In this document: positions 20,795-37,103 of the stretch, piece after piece
Numbering within the stretch: position 1 is the first letter of the stretch
Layout of the letters: the number at the start of each line of letters is the position of its first letter
From: a virus
Taxonomy: Duplodnaviria > Caudoviricetes
Length of the DNA stretch: 38,398 bases
Reading direction: 5' to 3' (one strand)
Virus record (IMG/VR): IMGVR_UViG_3300033406_000385
Coordinates: 1 to 38,398 of that record
The notes under the pieces: generated by a model
What the model saw: only the letters and a program-made list of their open reading frames with translations
What the model was told of the DNA's origin: nothing
The model's database searches: none
Translations under genes and position numbers: made by a program

Positions 20795-20890
20795 ACTACA
20801 CCCCGTCGTACCGGGTTCAGCGCGTGAAAATTGTTGCCCCTCCCCGGTCCCTGTGAATTGTGTCAAAAACGTGAAAATGGGGGGCATCAT
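20795..20890. promoter_or_regulatory. Probable cos/packaging initiation region
   Basis: GC-rich CCCCTCCCCGGTCCC core flanked by CGTGAAAAT direct repeats (20823, 20870) and a G6 run, between HNH and terS. Confidence 0.55.
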
Positions 20891-20932
20891 CCTAAATGAT
20901 AATTGTTATTTGTTATAAGTTTAAATTAATAA

Positions 20933-21223
20933 CTATCGCCTAACTAAGCGTCCATATTCATCAAACATTACATCTTCACGTAACGATCCACACTGTCCAT
21001 GAATTGTATTGTGACATCTCCGGCACAACAACATTAAGTTATCCCAACCTAATGTTATTACTGGATTGTTGATATTCTCAGGCGTAAGCCAAATTTTATG
21101 ATGGACAATTTCACCTAATCCATGACATTCTTCACATAAATGAAAAACAGAACGGGCATAAGCCGCTCTGCATTTAATCCATTGTGCTGAAGCATAGAAC
21201 CTCATAGCAAACTCTTGCGCCAT
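20933..21223 (-). CDS. HNH endonuclease (terminase-associated)
   Basis: FY.S..W, CxxC, VHH, NL..LC..CHN..H motifs; ATG at 21223 (21235 also possible). Confidence 0.92.
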   Translation of the reverse strand: MAQEFAMRFYASAQWIKCRAAYARSVFHLCEECHGLGEIVHHKIWLTPENINNPVITLGWDNLMLLCRRCHNTIHGQCGSLREDVMFDEYGRLVRR

Positions 21224-21224
21224 A

Positions 21225-21251
21225 TCACTGAGCATGATAATTAACTATCAT
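21225..21251 (-). CDS. 8-codon leader ORF MIVNYHAQ upstream of HNH
   Basis: SD GGAGGTGA 5 nt before this ATG; its TGA lies 1 nt before the HNH ATG. Confidence 0.4.
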   Translation of the reverse strand: MIVNYHAQ

Positions 21252-22691: not shown

Positions 22692-22892
22692 TTATTTGAA
22701 TTCTTTTCCAGTCGATTTGTTTTTTAATTGAATTCTTTCTATTAGGTCAAAGCCGGCAAGATCAATGATATATTTTAAAATTTTAATTAGAGCATGCGCC
22801 CGTTTTTCGTCTTTCGTGATATTCTTTACTGCTTCATACGCTGTTAAGTCTTTGCAACCACTGCTGTTAAGTCTTGGATTGCGCGGGTTCAT
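22692..22892 (-). CDS. Small hypothetical phage protein
   Basis: 66 aa, N.SG..DLTAY.A and TG.EF motifs; ATGA overlap with thyX stop. Confidence 0.75.
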   Translation of the reverse strand: MNPRNPRLNSSGCKDLTAYEAVKNITKDEKRAHALIKILKYIIDLAGFDLIERIQLKNKSTGKEFK

Positions 22893-23518
22893 GATTGATC
22901 ACCAAGATTATCAAATATGAGCGGGATTTTTGTCTTTACTTCCGCCAGCAACATTGATGCAACTTCTTGCATTTGCGGATGTGCAGCCGGTGCAGTTCGC
23001 AAATTGAAAAAATGTCGCCATTCACGCAAGTTTGCTGTCATAACAATTTCTGTTTTTAAGCTGTTGGGTAAAACCGCCCTGGCCTGTTGTGCGGTTTGAT
23101 CGCTATGTAATAACTGTAAATATGATGCTTCTGCCAATTCACAAGCCATTTTCCAAACATTATACGCTCTCGTTTCTTCTTGCAAATAGCAGGGTTTAAT
23201 TACCGTTATTTCATTGCCAAAATCACCTTTACTATAATTGCAGTACCTGGTTGATTCTTGTGAATAAGAAGCAAGCCTATGCCGAACAATCTCATGACTA
23301 ACCCCACGATCACAAATGAATTTTGCAGTGAATGAAACGTGTTCAAGAACGGACTCATGACCCCGGTTTATAATGTTTTTCACAAAGGATTCAGCCGTTC
23401 CATTAGTAATATTAGCTTCAGACTTATAACATACCCGGCCGCAAAGTTCGATTTTATTCAAAATTGCGGCACCGTCAAGATTGTCCAAAAATTCAACGCT
23501 CGGTCTGATAATTTTCAT
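22889..23518 (-). CDS. thyX: FAD-dependent thymidylate synthase
   Basis: GHESVLEH, SHEIVRHR.ASYSQESTRY, ARAVLP and NLREW.HF..LR motifs. Confidence 0.95.
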   Translation of the reverse strand: MKIIRPSVEFLDNLDGAAILNKIELCGRVCYKSEANITNGTAESFVKNIINRGHESVLEHVSFTAKFICDRGVSHEIVRHRLASYSQESTRYCNYSKGDFGNEITVIKPCYLQEETRAYNVWKMACELAEASYLQLLHSDQTAQQARAVLPNSLKTEIVMTANLREWRHFFNLRTAPAAHPQMQEVASMLLAEVKTKIPLIFDNLGDQS

Positions 23519-23649
23519 TTTATATCCGTTCCTTTCGTTTCAATTTTTTCGGCGCCACATTTAGTGAGATTATTTTTTTCGCAATCTATACAACAGGTAT
23601 GAGTTTTATTGTAATGGCAAGTTGGTGCTGGGCATTTATATTTATTCAT
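23515..23649 (-). CDS. 44-aa Cys-rich protein (not in ORF track)
   Basis: MNKYKCPAPTCHYNKTHTCCIDCEKNNLTKCGAEKIETKGTDIK; overlaps both neighbours, ATGA-coupled to thyX. Confidence 0.6.
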   Translation of the reverse strand: MNKYKCPAPTCHYNKTHTCCIDCEKNNLTKCGAEKIETKGTDIK

Positions 23650-23791
23650 GATTATCTCTTCTTTCTAAATTATAATAACGCTTCGAATGATTATTATGGT
23701 ATTGCGGATCCCGGGCGGCCACGCATAACGCTGTGACTAACACACCTAAACAACCACCAATACCAGCTGCTATAGCATGGGTAACAATCAT
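23642..23791 (-). CDS. Small single-TM protein (DUF3789-like)
   Basis: MIVTHAIAAGIGGCLGVLVTALCVAAR...; 3' part of track ORF 23642..23992. Confidence 0.55.
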   Translation of the reverse strand: MIVTHAIAAGIGGCLGVLVTALCVAARDPQYHNNHSKRYYNLERRDNHE

Positions 23792-23807
23792 CAGTACCGG
23801 AAGATTG

Positions 23808-24146
23808 TCAATCCATTCGAAAACCTGCAGCAATGCTGACACATCCCTTAAATTGAATAGGAATATGCCGGCACCAGGCAAAGTCAATTTCTGCACGGCA
23901 GCCTTCACAATTACGCCAGTCTCCATAAACATGCATTTCATCAGCCAGCGATAGTAATTCAAAATACATTTGCATACTACGTATAACGTCATATTTTTCT
24001 TGATTTAAAAAACTAAAATTATGTATTGGAGAAAGCGGAACAATGTTTTGATCTTCTGCAACGGCTCTGCGCATAATTTCAGCAATCTTTTCTGTATTTT
24101 CCATTACATTGTCCCTAAGAGGATGAGAAAAATAAATTTTCTTCAT
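23808..24146 (-). CDS. DUF4406-like / nucleoside 2-deoxyribosyltransferase-like protein
   Basis: IYFSHP, P.SPIH, LL..ADE..V.GDW..xEGC..E..FA....IPI pattern. Confidence 0.75.
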   Translation of the reverse strand: MKKIYFSHPLRDNVMENTEKIAEIMRRAVAEDQNIVPLSPIHNFSFLNQEKYDVIRSMQMYFELLSLADEMHVYGDWRNCEGCRAEIDFAWCRHIPIQFKGCVSIAAGFRMD

Positions 24147-24547
24147 GTTTCATCCCCCAATCTTACCGGAATGTCCTGTAATTCAGGATGATGTTTTTCC
24201 ATATGAATGGCAAAGGAAATGTTCCACAGCGCCGCCCGTAAATGTGGTTCGTCTGTCATACCGCGAAGGTAACAAGATAAATGACGAATTCCTGAATCAA
24301 TCAAGCTATGAATTGGAATGCCCTTTTCACAATTCCGTTCACCGTATTTTTCGGCACCCTGTTCACAATGTATGGCAAGCTCATGGATCGCATCCCAGGG
24401 AAGAAGATCATACCTGCCTTTACCTTCGTGCAGATCACGAACCGCACCAGTTTCAAATTGTGTCCGGTTGCCGGAGTCAGCGATTACTGGCGCAGATGGT
24501 GGATTTGTATTCGATATTTTTCGTATTGATCCTCCATGACAATTCAT
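24143..24547 (-). CDS. DUF5664 / dATP-dGTP diphosphohydrolase-domain protein
   Basis: F.TGAVRD...GKGRYDLLP, GA.KYG.RN..KGIP, RHL and E.HL.AA.WN motifs. Confidence 0.85.
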   Translation of the reverse strand: MNCHGGSIRKISNTNPPSAPVIADSGNRTQFETGAVRDLHEGKGRYDLLPWDAIHELAIHCEQGAEKYGERNCEKGIPIHSLIDSGIRHLSCYLRGMTDEPHLRAALWNISFAIHMEKHHPELQDIPVRLGDET

Positions 24548-31651: not shown

Positions 31652-32931
31652 TTATATTCACCTCCATGATATTTTTCAAACAGATCATCTGTGTAATCTC
31701 GGCCGGATTCCAACGTTGATAACACTTCTTCTTCCACTGAATTCTTGCACATCAGATAATAATAGAAACATGTTTTTTCCTGACCGATACGGTGAATGCG
31801 CTTCTTGCTTTGCATCCAATCTTCACAACTTTGGGTAAGCGTGAAGTAAATAATCTTGTTGGCTTTCTGCAAGTTTAAGCCCTTAGCACCGGCCTGATAC
31901 TGAACAAAAGTGATTGAATCAGATTTTGTTTCATACGCTGATAAATCTTTAACTGAACCGTTCACAACTGACACCGGCCGATCTTCGGCCAACTTTTTCA
32001 TTCGGTCAAGTTCATCATTAAAGTTGTAAAACACAATCAGGCGGTCTTCTGTTGATTCAATCAAGTCTTTGAACGCTTCAAGCTTGTCCTGGTTGAAGTG
32101 CCCACAAAGCTGCCTGGCATATAATCGTTTTGTTAGTGTCGTATCACCAACCAATTCAAAATCTTCCACCGTGATTAAACTGGTTCGCATAAACTTGCGA
32201 TATTCTTTTGAAGTGTCTATTATTATTCGGTTTTCAATCTGCTTTGGTAAATCAAATACTTCTTCCGATTTCATGAATACTGCACCATGTTTGGCAAGTT
32301 TATGCTTTAGCCGGTCAACATTTTTATAACCAATAACATTTTTTCTTTTAAAACCGCTACTGCCATCTTCAACCCATTCAACATCAACATATTGCTGCCA
32401 AAATAAATCCTTTGAAATGCTCCATCCCAGCAAGTGAAGCTGTGACCACAACCGTTCATATTTTCCCGAAGTTGGAGTTCCGCTTAATAGAATTACATTA
32501 TCCGGTCGCATCTTCAGAATGAATTTTGACCGCTTAGCGGTTTCATTTTGGATGATTGATGATTCGTCAAGCATTACTGTTAAATGCTCTAATTTAAGCA
32601 ATTCAGGACGCCTAAATGACAATTCATAATTGATAATTAAAACGTGCTGCCGCCGATCAAGCCCGAAAAGATGAACGTCAACATCATATTTAAAACCTTT
32701 TTTTGTACAATCTATAATTTTTATATTTGGGTAATAGGTTTCAAAGTGATTAATCCAATCATCAATTTTTGATTTTTGGCAAATGAGCAAGTTAGTTACG
32801 GTGTCCAATTGAAGTAACTTTTCCGAACCAACAAAAGTTTTTCCAAGTCCCATGTCAAGATAATAGGCAACCCTATTTTTATCAGCGGTTTGATTCAATG
32901 CCTGTTGTTGGTGAGGGAACAAATTAATCAT
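31648..32931 (-). CDS. SNF2-like (SF2) helicase
   Basis: LFPHQ, DMGLGKT, LDES, LSGTP, GLNLQ and RIHRIGQ motifs. Confidence 0.92.
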   Translation of the reverse strand: MINLFPHQQQALNQTADKNRVAYYLDMGLGKTFVGSEKLLQLDTVTNLLICQKSKIDDWINHFETYYPNIKIIDCTKKGFKYDVDVHLFGLDRRQHVLIINYELSFRRPELLKLEHLTVMLDESSIIQNETAKRSKFILKMRPDNVILLSGTPTSGKYERLWSQLHLLGWSISKDLFWQQYVDVEWVEDGSSGFKRKNVIGYKNVDRLKHKLAKHGAVFMKSEEVFDLPKQIENRIIIDTSKEYRKFMRTSLITVEDFELVGDTTLTKRLYARQLCGHFNQDKLEAFKDLIESTEDRLIVFYNFNDELDRMKKLAEDRPVSVVNGSVKDLSAYETKSDSITFVQYQAGAKGLNLQKANKIIYFTLTQSCEDWMQSKKRIHRIGQEKTCFYYYLMCKNSVEEEVLSTLESGRDYTDDLFEKYHGGEYK

Positions 32932-33793
32932 TTACATTAATCCCTGTAATTAGTAGGAACTTTTCAGCATTAAAATTCGGAATTTCCTTGATGGTTTTTT
33001 TATCTGCAGCATCAAGCGACTTCCACCAATTAATAAATGCAGCATCCGTATTATTTACTTTCAAGTAACCGCCAACCGTCTTATATTCGGGATGTGATTC
33101 CTTCTCTTCATCCGTCATATCACTTTCCCAAACAAACTCATTTGGTCTGAAATCAATGCGGCGTAAAACGGCATATGCTCTGCTGTTTCTCCATTCTCGA
33201 AAAGTCATATTGGTTTCTAAATCGAAAATTTTAATTTTGTGTTCCTCAGTACAAAAACAACCGGTTTCACGATCAGAAATATTAAAGTCACCTGTACAAA
33301 AGTCGCTTTGATTCCTGTTGCCAGTGTTCCTGTTGCCAGTGTTGCAATCGCCAGTGTTCCTGTTGCCAGTGTTCCAATCGCCAGTGTTCCAATCGCCAGT
33401 GTTCCTGTTGCCAGTGTTCCTGTTGCCAGTGTTCCTGTTGCCAGTGTTCCTGTTGCCAGTGTTGCAATCGCCAGTGTTGCAAAGTCCGCTATTTCCTTTA
33501 CCAAGGTTTACGATGGTCAGTAATTCATTCCAAGGAATTTCCCGAACGATTTCAATTTTATTGGTGCAACTCTTATCGTCATTCTCATCTAATTTCCCAT
33601 GTGCAATTACTTCAGCAACTTTATTGTCAGGATTGAAGCTGTAGTAATTAAAGCAATTTTTGGCTTCCTTGCAAAAATGAAACCCTCTGTCGCATACGCT
33701 GGGCGTTATGTCCTGCTCGTAAATCTTGCCAACTTCATACTGAAAACCTCGGCAAGTCCAATCTGGGTTAAATACTTTAAATCCTTTTTGCAT
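32924..33793 (-). CDS. Pentapeptide (NTGxx) repeat protein
   Basis: GFKVF..DW.CRGFQYEVG...GFHFC N-terminal domain, 11 NTG repeats, C-terminal GGYLK and IPNF. Confidence 0.85.
   Translation of the reverse strand: MQKGFKVFNPDWTCRGFQYEVGKIYEQDITPSVCDRGFHFCKEAKNCFNYYSFNPDNKVAEVIAHGKLDENDDKSCTNKIEIVREIPWNELLTIVNLGKGNSGLCNTGDCNTGNRNTGNRNTGNRNTGNRNTGDWNTGDWNTGNRNTGDCNTGNRNTGNRNQSDFCTGDFNISDRETGCFCTEEHKIKIFDLETNMTFREWRNSRAYAVLRRIDFRPNEFVWESDMTDEEKESHPEYKTVGGYLKVNNTDAAFINWWKSLDAADKKTIKEIPNFNAEKFLLITGINVND
33312..33481. repeat. 15-bp tandem repeat, 11 copies, coding
   Basis: GCCAGTGTT every 15 nt from 33320 to 33470 with three 6-nt variants. Confidence 0.95.
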
Positions 33794-34213: not shown

Positions 34214-34405
34214 TCATACAAATAATTCCAAAGGTTTTTCTGTGATCGCCGCTAGTTTTTTTGCTATTCGCTTACTGATCGATCCGCCATTCTCAATTCC
34301 GCTCAAATAACTTTGTGTAGTTTTTAAAACTGCTGCCAATTGCTCTTGGCTAATCCCGTTGCTTTCGCGAAATTCGCGTACAATTTCAGCTGCTTGCTGC
34401 CCCAA
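34214..34405 (-). CDS. Cro-like XRE HTH protein
   Basis: R...GISQEQLA..L.TTQSYLS.IENG; TTG start with SD AAGGAGGTGA. Confidence 0.9.
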   Translation of the reverse strand: MGQQAAEIVREFRESNGISQEQLAAVLKTTQSYLSGIENGGSISKRIAKKLAAITEKPLELFV

Positions 34406-34421
34406 ATCAATCACCTCCTTT

Positions 34422-34541
34422 ATCATTATTTTTGATTATAAATTGCTCACAGGCACTATCTTATCATTTTTTATGATGTTGTCAATCAATTTTTATGATA
34501 TTTTTTATCTTTTATCCATTTTCAATATCAAGTTTTATGAT
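34422..34541. promoter_or_regulatory. Genetic switch: four ATCA-N7-TGAT operators overlapping the lytic promoter
   Basis: Operators at 34422, 34463, 34485, 34527; minus-strand TTGACA (34485-34480), 16 nt, TAAGAT with extended TG. Confidence 0.8.
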
Positions 34542-34648
34542 AAAATTTTATAAAAAATACTGATAAATACTGTATTTATTTTAAAAAAATATAGTAAAAA
34601 TTGATATTTTTTGATATAGTAAAAATAAAAGATATGGAGGCGGTAATC

Positions 34649-35041
34649 GTGCGGTTTTTGGGTGAAAAATTAGCAAAACTACTAGAAGATAGAAAACTAA
34701 CAGAAGCAGACGCCGAAAAACTAACCGGTGTAAAACAAAACGTGATTAATATGCTGAAAAATGACAAAACAAAAAACCCCAGCCAAGCCATTCTCGATAA
34801 GCTTTGCCAGGGTTTCGGAGTTAACGAATTTTATTTTTATGTTTCAGGCGAAAACGTCGCCGATTATTTTCTAACTCACATGGATATTGAAACGAGGAGT
34901 TTCGTCTTAGGCGTTAGCAATTTGTCACATATCCAATTTGCTATGAAAATGAAAAACACCGGCATTCCAGTAGAAGCACTGGAAGAAATGGTTTCTAGTT
35001 TTCGTCGTTATGCGAATTCTTACCATCCCAAAACTCAATAA
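34649..35041 (+). CDS. CI-like XRE repressor without a recognisable S24 peptidase domain
   Basis: LGEKL..LLE.R.LT......TGV.Q..I..L.N....NPS...L.KL...FGV; GTG with SD GGAGG; divergent from cro. Confidence 0.85.
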   Translation: MRFLGEKLAKLLEDRKLTEADAEKLTGVKQNVINMLKNDKTKNPSQAILDKLCQGFGVNEFYFYVSGENVADYFLTHMDIETRSFVLGVSNLSHIQFAMKMKNTGIPVEALEEMVSSFRRYANSYHPKTQ

Positions 35042-35138
35042 ATTCTTTTTCATACTGCTCGTCCACTAAATACGAACCGTCCGGCAGCCTGATCCACGCG
35101 TATCCACCAACCATATCGATCACTTTGTACTCTGGCAT
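34995..35138 (-). CDS. 47-aa acidic protein, candidate SOS-induced antirepressor (not in ORF track)
   Basis: SD AAGGGAGG; MPEYKVIDMVGGYAWIRLPDGSYLVDEQYEKEFIEFWDGKNSHNDEN. Confidence 0.7.
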   Translation of the reverse strand: MPEYKVIDMVGGYAWIRLPDGSYLVDEQYEKEFIEFWDGKNSHNDEN

Positions 35139-35162
35139 ACCCAAACCTCCCTTAATTTAACT

Positions 35163-35210
35163 CGAACAAGTGTTTGATTTTATTATACATTATATGTTTT
35201 GTGAATACAA
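35163..35210 (-). promoter_or_regulatory. Sigma-A promoter with LexA (Cheo/SOS) box over the start site
   Basis: TTGTAT (35210-35205), 17 nt, TATAAT (35187-35182); CGAACAAGTGTTTG at 35163-35176. Confidence 0.75.
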
Positions 35211-35290: not shown

Positions 35291-35349
35291 TTTACGCAAG
35301 CTTACGTAAGCTTACGACAGCTTACAGTAATTGTAAAAAATGCTATAGT
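35291..35349 (+). promoter_or_regulatory. Promoter of the RHH-integrase operon with four 10-bp direct repeats
   Basis: TTTACGCAAG CTTACGTAAG CTTACGACAG CTTACAGTAA; CTTACA, 17 nt, TATAGT with extended TG. Confidence 0.7.
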
Positions 35350-35367
35350 GTTTTTGAGGTGATAACA

Positions 35368-35535
35368 ATGGGCGAATTAAAAGATCGTTCTCGTATAACA
35401 ACCAGTTTACCTGATGAGCAGATAGAGATGCTCCACGAACTATCTTCCAAGACCAAAATACCTATGTCAAAATTATTCGAAGAAGCTTTGGAAGATTTGT
35501 TTGCCAAATACGTTAAAAGGAAGTGGCATGATTGA
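35368..35535 (+). CDS. Ribbon-helix-helix protein (RHH_3-like), 55 aa (not in ORF track)
   Basis: SD GAGGTGA; LKDRSRITTSL......L..LS..TKIPMSKL.EEALEDL..KY; TTGA overlap with integrase start. Confidence 0.85.
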   Translation: MGELKDRSRITTSLPDEQIEMLHELSSKTKIPMSKLFEEALEDLFAKYVKRKWHD

Positions 35536-37070
35536 ACGCAGCCATATACGCTCGCTATTCTAGCGATAAACAACGAACAGAAAGCGCGACAGCGCAAATA
35601 CAGGCTGGGCAAAGGTATTGTGCCCAGCAATCTTACACTGTTGTAAAAGAGTACGTTGATGAGGCCACTACTGGCACTAACGATGACCGTCCGGAATTTC
35701 AGCGAATGCTAACGGATGCTGCCGCCGGATTGTTTCAAGTGCTGGTTGTCCATAAAGTTGACCGTTTTGCTCGCAATCGCGAAGACGCCGCTTTTAATAA
35801 ACAAAAACTTCGCAAAGCCAAAGTCCGCCTGGAATACGTTGAACAACATCTGGACGGGTCGGCAGAGTCGGTTATCCTGGAATCTGTGCTGGAAGGCATG
35901 GCGGAATACTACTCTAAAAATCTTGCAAAAGAAACAATGAAGGGGTTAATGATGAACGCGCAAAATGCACAATTTAACGGTGGAACTCCCCCACTCGGTT
36001 ATAATGTCGATGAAAACAAAAAATATGTTATCAATGAGCATGAAGCCGAAGCGGTGCGTTTAATCTTCCGGCTCTATGCTGACGGAATGGGCTTGGCTCG
36101 CATATCAGATGAATTAACGATGCGTGGATATAAAACGAAACGCGGTGTTAAATTCGCGAAAAATAGCTTGCATGATATTTTACGCAATCACAAATATATC
36201 GGTGTTTATACGTTCGGGGCGGTATCAAAAACCGAGGAAGGAACGCGCAATACTCACCAGCAGACAACTCCAAAGATGACTATCAAAGACGCTATCCCGC
36301 CGATCATCGACAAAGACACATGGCAGGCGGTACAAAACAAACGAGAAGAGAACAAAAAACGCCGCGGGGCGAATGCCGCCAGGCGCACGTATTTATTATC
36401 CGGCCTAGTGTTTTGCGGCGAATGTGGCGCGGCTTATATCGGCAATACGTCGTCCCCACGCGGTGTGGAATACTCATCCTATGTTTGCGGCAAGCGTGAC
36501 AGAAAAAGCGGTACATGCGCCAACCAGAGTGTTCCGAAAGACGAATTAGAAAACAAGGTCGTATTGTTTGTCAAAGACTATATTTTAAAACCGGAAAACG
36601 CTGACGCTTTGGCTAATAAGTTAAATACTATTCAAAAAGAACAGTCAGTAAATATCGTAGAAGAGATTAACTCCCTTGAAAACGAAAAAAAGCAGACCGC
36701 CAAAAAAATTGACAATCTGCTTAAAGCTATCGAAGATGGATTATATTCTCCTACGATCAAAACAAACATGATCGAAAATGAAAATCGTCTAAGGCTGATT
36801 GAAAACCGATTAACAGAATTAAACACGTTGATAGGAAGATGCTTTTTGACTGGCGAACAAATCAATGCCGTATTAGATAAATTCCGAACCGTGCTGGCCG
36901 AAAGCAGTTCACAGGAAGATATTAAACAAGTATTGAACATCCTGGTAGAAAAAGTTGTGATTGAAAAACAAAAGCAGGTAGACATATCAATACATCTACC
37001 TGTTCGGGTTTTAATGGTGCCGAGGACCGGAATCGAACCGGTACGGAGCTCACGCTCCGAGGGATTTTAA
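35532..37070 (+). CDS. Large serine recombinase (integrase)
   Basis: YARYSS catalytic motif, DRPEFQRML, DRFAR, GG.PPLGY, LLSGLVFCGECG zinc ribbon, coiled coil. Confidence 0.95.
   Translation: MNAAIYARYSSDKQRTESATAQIQAGQRYCAQQSYTVVKEYVDEATTGTNDDRPEFQRMLTDAAAGLFQVLVVHKVDRFARNREDAAFNKQKLRKAKVRLEYVEQHLDGSAESVILESVLEGMAEYYSKNLAKETMKGLMMNAQNAQFNGGTPPLGYNVDENKKYVINEHEAEAVRLIFRLYADGMGLARISDELTMRGYKTKRGVKFAKNSLHDILRNHKYIGVYTFGAVSKTEEGTRNTHQQTTPKMTIKDAIPPIIDKDTWQAVQNKREENKKRRGANAARRTYLLSGLVFCGECGAAYIGNTSSPRGVEYSSYVCGKRDRKSGTCANQSVPKDELENKVVLFVKDYILKPENADALANKLNTIQKEQSVNIVEEINSLENEKKQTAKKIDNLLKAIEDGLYSPTIKTNMIENENRLRLIENRLTELNTLIGRCFLTGEQINAVLDKFRTVLAESSSQEDIKQVLNILVEKVVIEKQKQVDISIHLPVRVLMVPRTGIEPVRSSRSEGF
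36963..37002 (-). terminator. Terminator for the tRNA operon, embedded in the integrase CDS
   Basis: Minus strand CAGGTAGATGTATTGATATGTCTACCTG then CTTTTGTTTTT, 12 nt after the tRNA-Leu CCA. Confidence 0.7.
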
Positions 37071-37103
37071 GTCCCTTGCGTCTGCCAGTTCCGCCACCCC
37101 GGC
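37015..37103 (-). tRNA. tRNA-Leu(TAA)
   Basis: GCCGGGG...GGGAC TTAAAA TCCC, long variable arm, GGTTCGATTCC, encoded CCA. Confidence 0.97.

What the first reader, a model, noticed from the sequence alone, without database searches (positions are those of the whole stretch)
34995..35210. LexA-controlled 47-aa gene converging on a non-cleavable cI: candidate SOS antirepressor switch
Seen: a near-consensus promoter (TTGTAT-17-TATAAT) with CGAACAAGTGTTTG over its start site, a strong SD, and an acidic, aromatic 47-aa ORF missing from the ORF track that overlaps the cI 3' end by 47 nt on the opposite strand. CI is only 130 aa with no S24 autoprotease motifs, and no ImmA-type HExxH protease gene is visible nearby. 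Established: the Firmicutes LexA box is CGAAC-N4-GTTYG; LexA-repressed antirepressors induce coliphage 186, N15 and Gifsy prophages. Inference: induction works through this small protein (CI binder or DNA mimic), possibly reinforced by antisense transcription into cI. I do not recognise the protein family.
Basis: partly seen in the sequence, partly recalled or inferred. Interest (0 to 1): 0.82.

Follow-up and report, generated by a model that had tools for sequence, protein, structure and literature searches.

The report
SOS-gated antirepressor family of Negativicutes phages
A prophage carries a real 47-amino-acid gene behind a LexA-type DNA-damage site, tail-to-tail with a short repressor that lacks a self-cleavage domain, and it likely wakes the phage by binding that repressor; the design is known from Bacillus phage phi106, but this protein family has no named relative and also sits in host chromosomes.

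Summary
In detail: ORF 34995-35138 (-), SD, CGAACAAGTGTTTG over the expected start site, 47-nt overlap with a 130-aa HTH repressor; no S24 or ImmA match in the record. The -35 is only 3/6.

The protein belongs to an unnamed family (33 of 401 genomes sampled from Anaerospora's class; 0 of 400 others from the phylum) with pN/pS 0.10-0.24. Of 42 loci, 30 lie tail-to-tail with a short repressor; 16 of those carry the box (about 1 expected), against 0 of the 12 others. The box differs by one spacer base from lexA and recA boxes of related hosts.

Best reading (0.7): a LexA-gated protein antirepressor working like phi106 AimX-AimC (Kabel 2025; PDB 9SF2 is the repressor's best PDB sequence match), without arbitrium genes. 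Binding is not shown. DNA mimicry is weakened (acidity not conserved). Antisense is weakened (overlap varies; strong hairpins follow the ORF in relatives).

Extra: phage-free chromosomal copies with the box in 8 of 8 genomes of one family, and box-less copies in satellite-like elements. This scan noted the same design before on other DNA. New variant; interest 0.48.

The parts
34995..35138 (-). 47-aa gene, putative antirepressor; conserved core residues 4-33 (Y4, W15, G21, Y23, V25, D26, E32, F33); predicted three strands plus a helix
   Evidence: pLDDT 79; pN/pS in relatives
35145..35153 (-). Shine-Dalgarno AAGGGAGGT
   Evidence: sequence
35163..35176 (.). LexA-type operator CGAACAAGTGTTTG over the expected transcription start
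   Evidence: one spacer base from lexA/recA boxes in G001 and G002; enriched upstream of relatives
35182..35210 (-). putative promoter TTGTAT-17-TATAAT (a second TATAAT at 35194-35189); inferred
   Evidence: not listed by the scanner because -35 is 3/6
34649..35041 (+). 130-aa CI-type repressor: HTH_3 plus all-helical C-terminal part, no peptidase domain; last 47 nt overlap the small gene
   Evidence: best PDB sequence hit 9SF2_A, phi106 repressor with AimX
34214..34426 (-). cro/AimL-like HTH gene (63-70 aa) heading the early replication operon, divergent from cI
34421..34565 (.). five TATCA-N7-TGATA palindromes between cro and cI, likely CI/Cro operators
   Evidence: 5 of 10 window matches lie here, 1.8 expected in the whole window; pattern was read from this region, so partly circular
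34957..34984 (-). weak hairpin and T-run just past the small gene's stop, inside cI; possible terminator
   Evidence: z -2.2; 5 of 200 shuffles as good; chance-level count
35359..35535 (+). ribbon-helix-helix gene ahead of the integrase, divergent from the small gene
35532..37070 (+). large serine integrase running into tRNA-Leu (37015-37103)

Best explanation
The 47-aa gene sits behind a LexA-type operator and tail-to-tail with a repressor that lacks a self-cleavage domain, and it likely encodes the prophage's SOS antirepressor: DNA damage would remove host LexA, and the small protein would then bind the repressor and release the cro-led early operon. Shown: the gene, box, layout, family conservation, linkage to this repressor family, and absence of S24/ImmA matches. 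Inferred: LexA binding, damage induction, direct binding to CI, and that binding is to the helical C-terminal oligomerisation part (by analogy with AimX-AimC and SinI-SinR). The conserved aromatic residues would form the fold and contact surface. Two-repeat relatives suggest it may act as a dimer.
For: Real gene family: 12 short relatives among 49 phmmer hits, the other 37 being long repeat-like proteins; pN/pS 0.10-0.24 in five groups of relatives over 32-33 codons. Linkage: 30 of 42 loci scored have a short HTH repressor tail-to-tail. Conversely, the 11 best of 28 repressor-family hits all have the small gene, 9 of them not in the training alignment, and 14 of 28 have it overall. The pair persists beside serine integrases (window, L132, L151) and tyrosine-type integrases (L125-L129, L133). 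Box: 16 of 30 convergent loci against about 1 expected from shuffles and 0 of 12 non-convergent loci; after clustering at 60% identity, 7 of 14 against 0 of 8, Fisher p 0.022. Related hosts have LexA and RecA with boxes CGAACAGGTGTTTG, CGAACGAGTGTTTG and CGAACAAGCGTTTG. No other induction route was found in the record. Precedent: phi106 has LexA box, 29-aa ORF overlapping the 3' end of short non-cleavable AimC, then divergent aimL, with protein-level antirepression shown (bioRxiv 10.1101/2025.11.23.689978). 9SF2_A is the top PDB sequence hit for the repressor (E 1e-16 profile, 4.5e-5 single).
Against: No expression, binding or induction data. 14 of 30 convergent loci have no box at 1 mismatch or fewer, so LexA is not the only input. 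12 of 42 loci have no converging repressor, although some of these are weak hits of 20-25 bits. Sequence co-variation with the repressor C-terminal part is weak (rho 0.20, Mantel p 0.057; N-terminal part -0.13). The predicted fold is beta-rich, unlike the mostly helical AimX and SinI mimics, so the binding mode cannot simply be copied from them. The repressor alignment was built from loci found through the small gene, which is partly circular. The window's own host LexA was not seen. The record is about 90% complete.
Confidence: 0.7

Rival explanations
1. The small protein is SOS-induced but acts indirectly: as an adaptor that sends CI to a host protease, or on another regulator such as Cro, the RHH protein or a host factor.
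For: Its predicted beta-rich fold is not a mimic of the repressor's helical tail. 12 of 42 loci lack a converging repressor. Chromosomal and satellite-like copies exist.
Against: Tight linkage to one repressor family in both directions. The tested precedents with this layout are stoichiometric binders.
Confidence: 0.13
2. The function is antisense transcription or polymerase collision into cI; the protein is incidental or secondary.
For: 47-nt overlap here, and overlaps of 33-95 nt in 6 of 10 prophage-type relatives.
Against: 4 of 10 have a 31-33 nt gap. Strong hairpins follow the ORF in 4 of 5 relatives folded (z -4.6 to -5.8; L145 -0.8). Protein-level purifying selection. In phi106 a recoded allele worked and a start-to-stop allele did not.
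Confidence: 0.06
3. The protein is an acidic DNA mimic that plugs the HTH domain, like Sar on SroF.
For: The window's copy has 11 acidic against 4 basic residues. Sar is a LexA-controlled precedent.
Against: 6 of 14 members counted are neutral or basic. Conserved positions are mostly aromatic or aliphatic, with only D26 and E32 acidic. The partner is an HTH repressor, not an integrase fold.
Confidence: 0.06
4. It is a recombination directionality factor or excisionase for the neighbouring serine integrase, switched on by SOS.
For: It lies between cI and the integrase cassette, and small RDFs are diverse (recalled).
Against: The family sits beside tyrosine-type integrases in L125-L129 and L133, and beside no integrase in L181, L182, L183, L185 and L193, while the repressor stays.
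Confidence: 0.03

Closest known systems
AimX-AimC-AimL 'extended arbitrium' module of Bacillus phage phi106 (Kabel et al., bioRxiv 10.1101/2025.11.23.689978; PDB 9SF2, 9IAQ)
   Same: LexA box, then a small ORF overlapping the 3' end of a short (80-140 aa) non-cleavable HTH repressor on the opposite strand, then a divergent cro-like gene ahead of replication genes. The repressor here has 9SF2_A as best PDB sequence match.
   Different: No aimR/aimP genes here: upstream lie an RHH gene and an integrase. Different bacterial class. No sequence match of this family to any PDB chain named AimX (HMMER filters may drop short weak hits). [quoted passage not shown] Also present as chromosomal and two-repeat forms.
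Sar-SroF of SPbeta-like phages (Chmielowska et al., bioRxiv 10.1101/2025.11.27.690993)
   Same: A LexA-repressed small antirepressor induces a Bacillota prophage whose repressor is not cleaved by RecA.
   Different: SroF has an integrase-like fold and Sar is a DNA mimic. Here the repressor is HTH type and acidity is not conserved.
SinI-SinR of Bacillus subtilis (PDB 1B0N)
   Same: HTH repressor with a short helical C-terminal part; the cI model aligns to SinR over 104 columns (Foldseek E 1.5e-3).
   Different: SinI is a helical mimic and not LexA-controlled (recalled). No Pfam SinI hit appeared among the 25 of 31 families listed for the repressors.
LexA-controlled antirepressors of Proteobacteria: 186 Tum, N15 AntC, Gifsy GfoA/GftA, SPC32H Ant (recalled, not read here)
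   Same: Same circuit logic: LexA loss, then antirepressor, then release of a non-cleavable repressor.
   Different: No sequence or fold match found. Different LexA motif and phylum.

Membership tests
Extended arbitrium module (AimR-AimP-AimX-AimC-AimL) | aimR and aimP upstream of the small ORF, in the same direction | tested here: not met
   Upstream lie an RHH gene and a serine integrase on the other strand. All long main-strand ORFs have other family hits or are too short for AimR. No AimR profile was run.
Extended arbitrium module (AimR-AimP-AimX-AimC-AimL) | short HTH repressor without autocleavage domain, converging on the small ORF | tested here: met
   130 aa, HTH_3 only, no PF00717
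Extended arbitrium module (AimR-AimP-AimX-AimC-AimL) | divergent cro-like gene ahead of replication genes | tested here: met
   34214-34426 HTH, then helicase, exonuclease, polymerase, primase
Extended arbitrium module (AimR-AimP-AimX-AimC-AimL) | sequence or fold homology of the small protein to AimX | tested here: inconclusive
   No AimX chain listed in PDB sequence searches at E up to 10. AimX sequences are in figures and supplements that I could not see.
LexA-controlled antirepressors (functional class) | LexA operator of the host's type on the gene's promoter | tested here: met
   Box over expected +1, matching lexA/recA boxes of related genomes and enriched in relatives. Sequence evidence only.
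LexA-controlled antirepressors (functional class) | direct binding to and inactivation of the repressor | not testable with these tools
   needs pull-down, EMSA or reporter assay
LexA-controlled antirepressors (functional class) | needed for DNA-damage induction of the prophage | not testable with these tools
   needs a lysogen and knockout
ImmR-ImmA protease switch | HExxH metalloprotease gene (PF06114) in the element | tested here: not met
   0 matches in the 90%-complete record; no HExxH in frames of 60 aa or more
Sar-type DNA mimic | conserved acidic surface | tested here: not met
   6 of 14 members counted have K+R at least equal to D+E; net composition only, surface charge not computed

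The most novel reading that the evidence does not exclude
This repressor/antirepressor pair is a portable SOS switch that Negativicutes have domesticated and satellites have borrowed. All 8 genomes of one family carry a phage-free chromosomal copy with an intact LexA box (a second-tier SOS relay, or a host-made inducer of related prophages). Box-less chromosomal copies face ATP synthase I-chain genes, including a full F1Fo operon. Satellite-like elements carry the small gene without its repressor in their early operons, where it could wake helper prophages.
Probability: 0.25. Interest if true: 0.72.

Novelty: new variant of a known kind. Interest (0 to 1): 0.48.

Why it matters
Many prophages have repressors with no visible induction mechanism. 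This gives a searchable profile for the missing switch in Negativicutes (acetogens and other anaerobes), and suggests that the AimX-AimC layout, which Kabel et al. found tightly tied to arbitrium in Bacillus, also runs on LexA alone with a different small protein. A one-gene inducer would be a handy tool for curing or inducing these prophages. The chromosomal copies raise a testable question about phage switches reused for host regulation.

Tried and rejected
Complex prediction of cI with the small protein gave no answer (score 0.01, controls not folded); it is not counted for or against. The look-up of sequencing runs listed no RNA holder; no evidence either way. Fold searches of the 47-aa model found nothing significant: PDB Foldseek, BFVD (scattered IrrE/SprT rows at E above 1 were treated as chance, so the 'dead ImmA fragment' idea was dropped), VIA-wide best Z 2.9. 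Pfam, PHROGs, ESM Atlas and PDB sequence searches gave no usable family (NblA at E 0.55-1.3 treated as chance). No tblastn match in cultured phages or plasmids, and only HTH-level repressor matches in phages. The word-index search with the single protein found nothing. Loci dropped before counting: L130 and L138 (false pattern hits); L123, L131, L135, L136, L139, L142, L143 and L144 (duplicates of other loci or of the window); 12 of the 42 match rows came without a locus, and of these one is L145 and several were read later but not added to the counts. The 39-40-aa ORFs converging on another repressor subgroup do not match this family (hhalign 0.2%). Co-variation test inconclusive.

Full report
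1. Observation. The window is a provirus record about 90% complete: a siphovirus-type prophage with head, tail, replication and lysis genes, and a serine integrase running into tRNA-Leu. The ORF is at 34995-35138 (-), 47 aa, with SD AAGGGAGGT. TTGTAT-17-TATAAT exists and the box begins 6 nt after the -10; the -35 matches only 3 of 6. The overlap with the 130-aa repressor is 47 nt. The repressor has only an HTH hit. No S24 peptidase, no ImmA-type protease and no HExxH were found in the record.

2. The gene is real. The exact protein is a called gene in three sources. phmmer over 1.84 billion representatives gave 49 hits, of which 12 are short relatives at 45-65% identity and the rest long repeat-like proteins. 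The alignment of 23 members keeps Y4, W15, G21, Y23, V25, D26, E32 and F33; the tail that overlaps cI is not conserved. In five groups of relatives, pN/pS is 0.10-0.24 over 32-33 codons, uncorrected, and none includes the window's own gene. AlphaFold2 predicts three short strands and a helix (pLDDT 79), with no significant fold match. The profile hits 33 of 401 genomes drawn from the class of G001. G001 holds L133, titled Anaerospora hongkongensis, a member of Negativicutes. None of 400 other genomes drawn from the phylum was hit. The host thiD in the window is 72-73% identical to G002 and G131 and 58-59% to the other three genomes tested, so the host is likely a Negativicute.

3. Context. Of 42 loci scored (window, 12 from pattern scans, 29 from genome searches; dropped rows are listed under Tried and rejected), 30 have a short HTH repressor tail-to-tail. 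The prophage-type repressors form one family at 25-38% identity, with an all-helical C-terminal part. Conversely, among 28 repressor-family hits the 11 best all have the small gene, and 14 have it overall. Six have a 175-aa protein whose first 45 residues align with the family (hhalign 36%, E 4e-4) and which looks two-repeat by eye. Eight have other small converging ORFs. The integrase type changes (serine or tyrosine) or is absent while the pair stays. A GAAC-N4-GTTC box with at most 1 mismatch lies within 125 nt upstream in 16 of 30 convergent loci (about 1 expected) and 0 of 12 others; by 60% clusters it is 7 of 14 against 0 of 8, p 0.022. lexA and recA of G001 and G002 carry boxes such as CGAACAGGTGTTTG, CGAACGAGTGTTTG and CGAACAAGCGTTTG, each one spacer base from the window's.

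4. Mechanism. Shown: gene, box, layout, linkage, and lack of a cleavage route. Inferred: LexA holds the promoter shut; RecA-triggered LexA cleavage lets the protein be made; it binds CI, likely at the C-terminal oligomerisation part; CI leaves the TATCA-N7-TGATA sites between cro and cI (5 of 10 window matches cluster there); and the early operon fires. Antisense is a poor general explanation: 4 of 10 prophage-type relatives have a 31-33 nt gap, and 4 of 5 relatives folded have a strong hairpin just after the ORF. DNA mimicry is weakened because 6 of 14 members counted are not acidic. Against my reading: 14 of 30 convergent loci lack the box, 12 of 42 lack the repressor, co-variation with the repressor tail is weak (p 0.057), and there are no expression or binding data.

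5. Known systems. Kabel et al. (bioRxiv 10.1101/2025.11.23.689978; I read the abstract, Results part 1 of 3, sections 9, 10, 11 and 33, and search passages) describe phi106: a LexA site, a 29-aa AimX overlapping the end of aimC by 30 bp, a short non-cleavable AimC and a divergent aimL. The protein, not the RNA, derepresses, and it forms a heterodimer with AimC. They report few close aimC/aimL homologues outside arbitrium systems in Bacillus. The repressor here has PDB 9SF2 (phi106 repressor with AimX) as its best sequence match, mainly through the HTH and linker. Chmielowska et al. (bioRxiv 10.1101/2025.11.27.690993; abstract, sections 9 and 13) describe LexA-controlled Sar. Tum, AntC and the Gifsy proteins are recalled. 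So this works like AimX-AimC but is not a member of the arbitrium module: there is no aimR/aimP, and homology to AimX was not detected. AimX sequences sit in figures and closed supplements, which could change that last point.

6. Novelty. The circuit is known. The protein family has no name in the libraries searched, and searches found no paper on it. This scan has noted the same design on other genomes (e1-3599591, e1-10148304), with no sequence look-alike to this family. The most unusual aspect is the spread beyond prophages. All 8 genomes of G131's family carry a boxed pair; the three read over 8-12 kb (L181, L182, L193) show no phage genes. Box-less chromosomal pairs face ATP synthase I-chain genes (L183, L184, L194). 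A capsid-tape measure-integrase element (L188) and a replication-gene element (L186) carry the small gene in an early operon without the converging repressor. What these copies do is untested.

7. Verdict. Observation confirmed; interpretation partly supported; best explanation at 0.7; new variant of a known kind; interest 0.48.

Noticed in passing
L181:5540-6070, L182:5857-6877, L193:5969-6947; all 8 genomes: Chromosomal copy of LexA box, small gene and converging repressor; no phage genes in the three loci read over 8-12 kb. In L182 and L193 an unknown 78-88-aa gene is divergent from the repressor.
   Followed up: partly
L184:4862-6077, L194:4739-6258, L183:5827-7665: Box-less repressor/small-gene pair whose repressor is divergent from ATP synthase I-chain genes (PF03899); in L184 and L194 a full F1Fo operon follows.
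   Followed up: partly
L188:40-8586, L186:764-6603, L192:5435-6157, L187, L195: Family members in operons of satellite-like or small mobile elements with no LexA box and no converging repressor; L188 has capsid, tape measure and integrase; L192 has two tandem copies.
   Followed up: partly
L209, L211, L212, L219, L221, L224 (for example L211:1872-2396): 175-aa protein of no Pfam family, apparently two repeats of the same small domain, converging on the same repressor family with a 4-nt overlap in most.
   Followed up: partly
L210, L220, L222, L223, L225, L226: A different 39-51-aa ORF with a WDGY motif converges on a chromosomal repressor subgroup; no profile match to the 47-aa family.
   Followed up: partly
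L124:585-947 and L132: Prophage relatives with no LexA box, where a 120-150-aa putative membrane protein and a second HTH regulator lie upstream of the small gene; possibly a different induction signal.
   Followed up: no
window 21223-21239 and 20885-20901: A perfect and a 1-mismatch TATCA-N7-TGATA site at the start of the HNH gene and upstream of the small terminase; possible repressor control of late genes, or chance.
   Followed up: no
window 35300-35330: Three GCTTAC direct repeats over a promoter-like site ahead of the RHH-integrase pair; possible RHH operator.
   Followed up: no
window 32924-33793: DUF7666 plus pentapeptide-repeat (NTGxx) protein early in the lytic operon.
   Followed up: no
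window 22889-24547: ThyX, a nucleoside deoxyribosyltransferase-like gene and a dATP/dGTP diphosphohydrolase-like gene cluster next to the phage DNA polymerase and primase.
   Followed up: no
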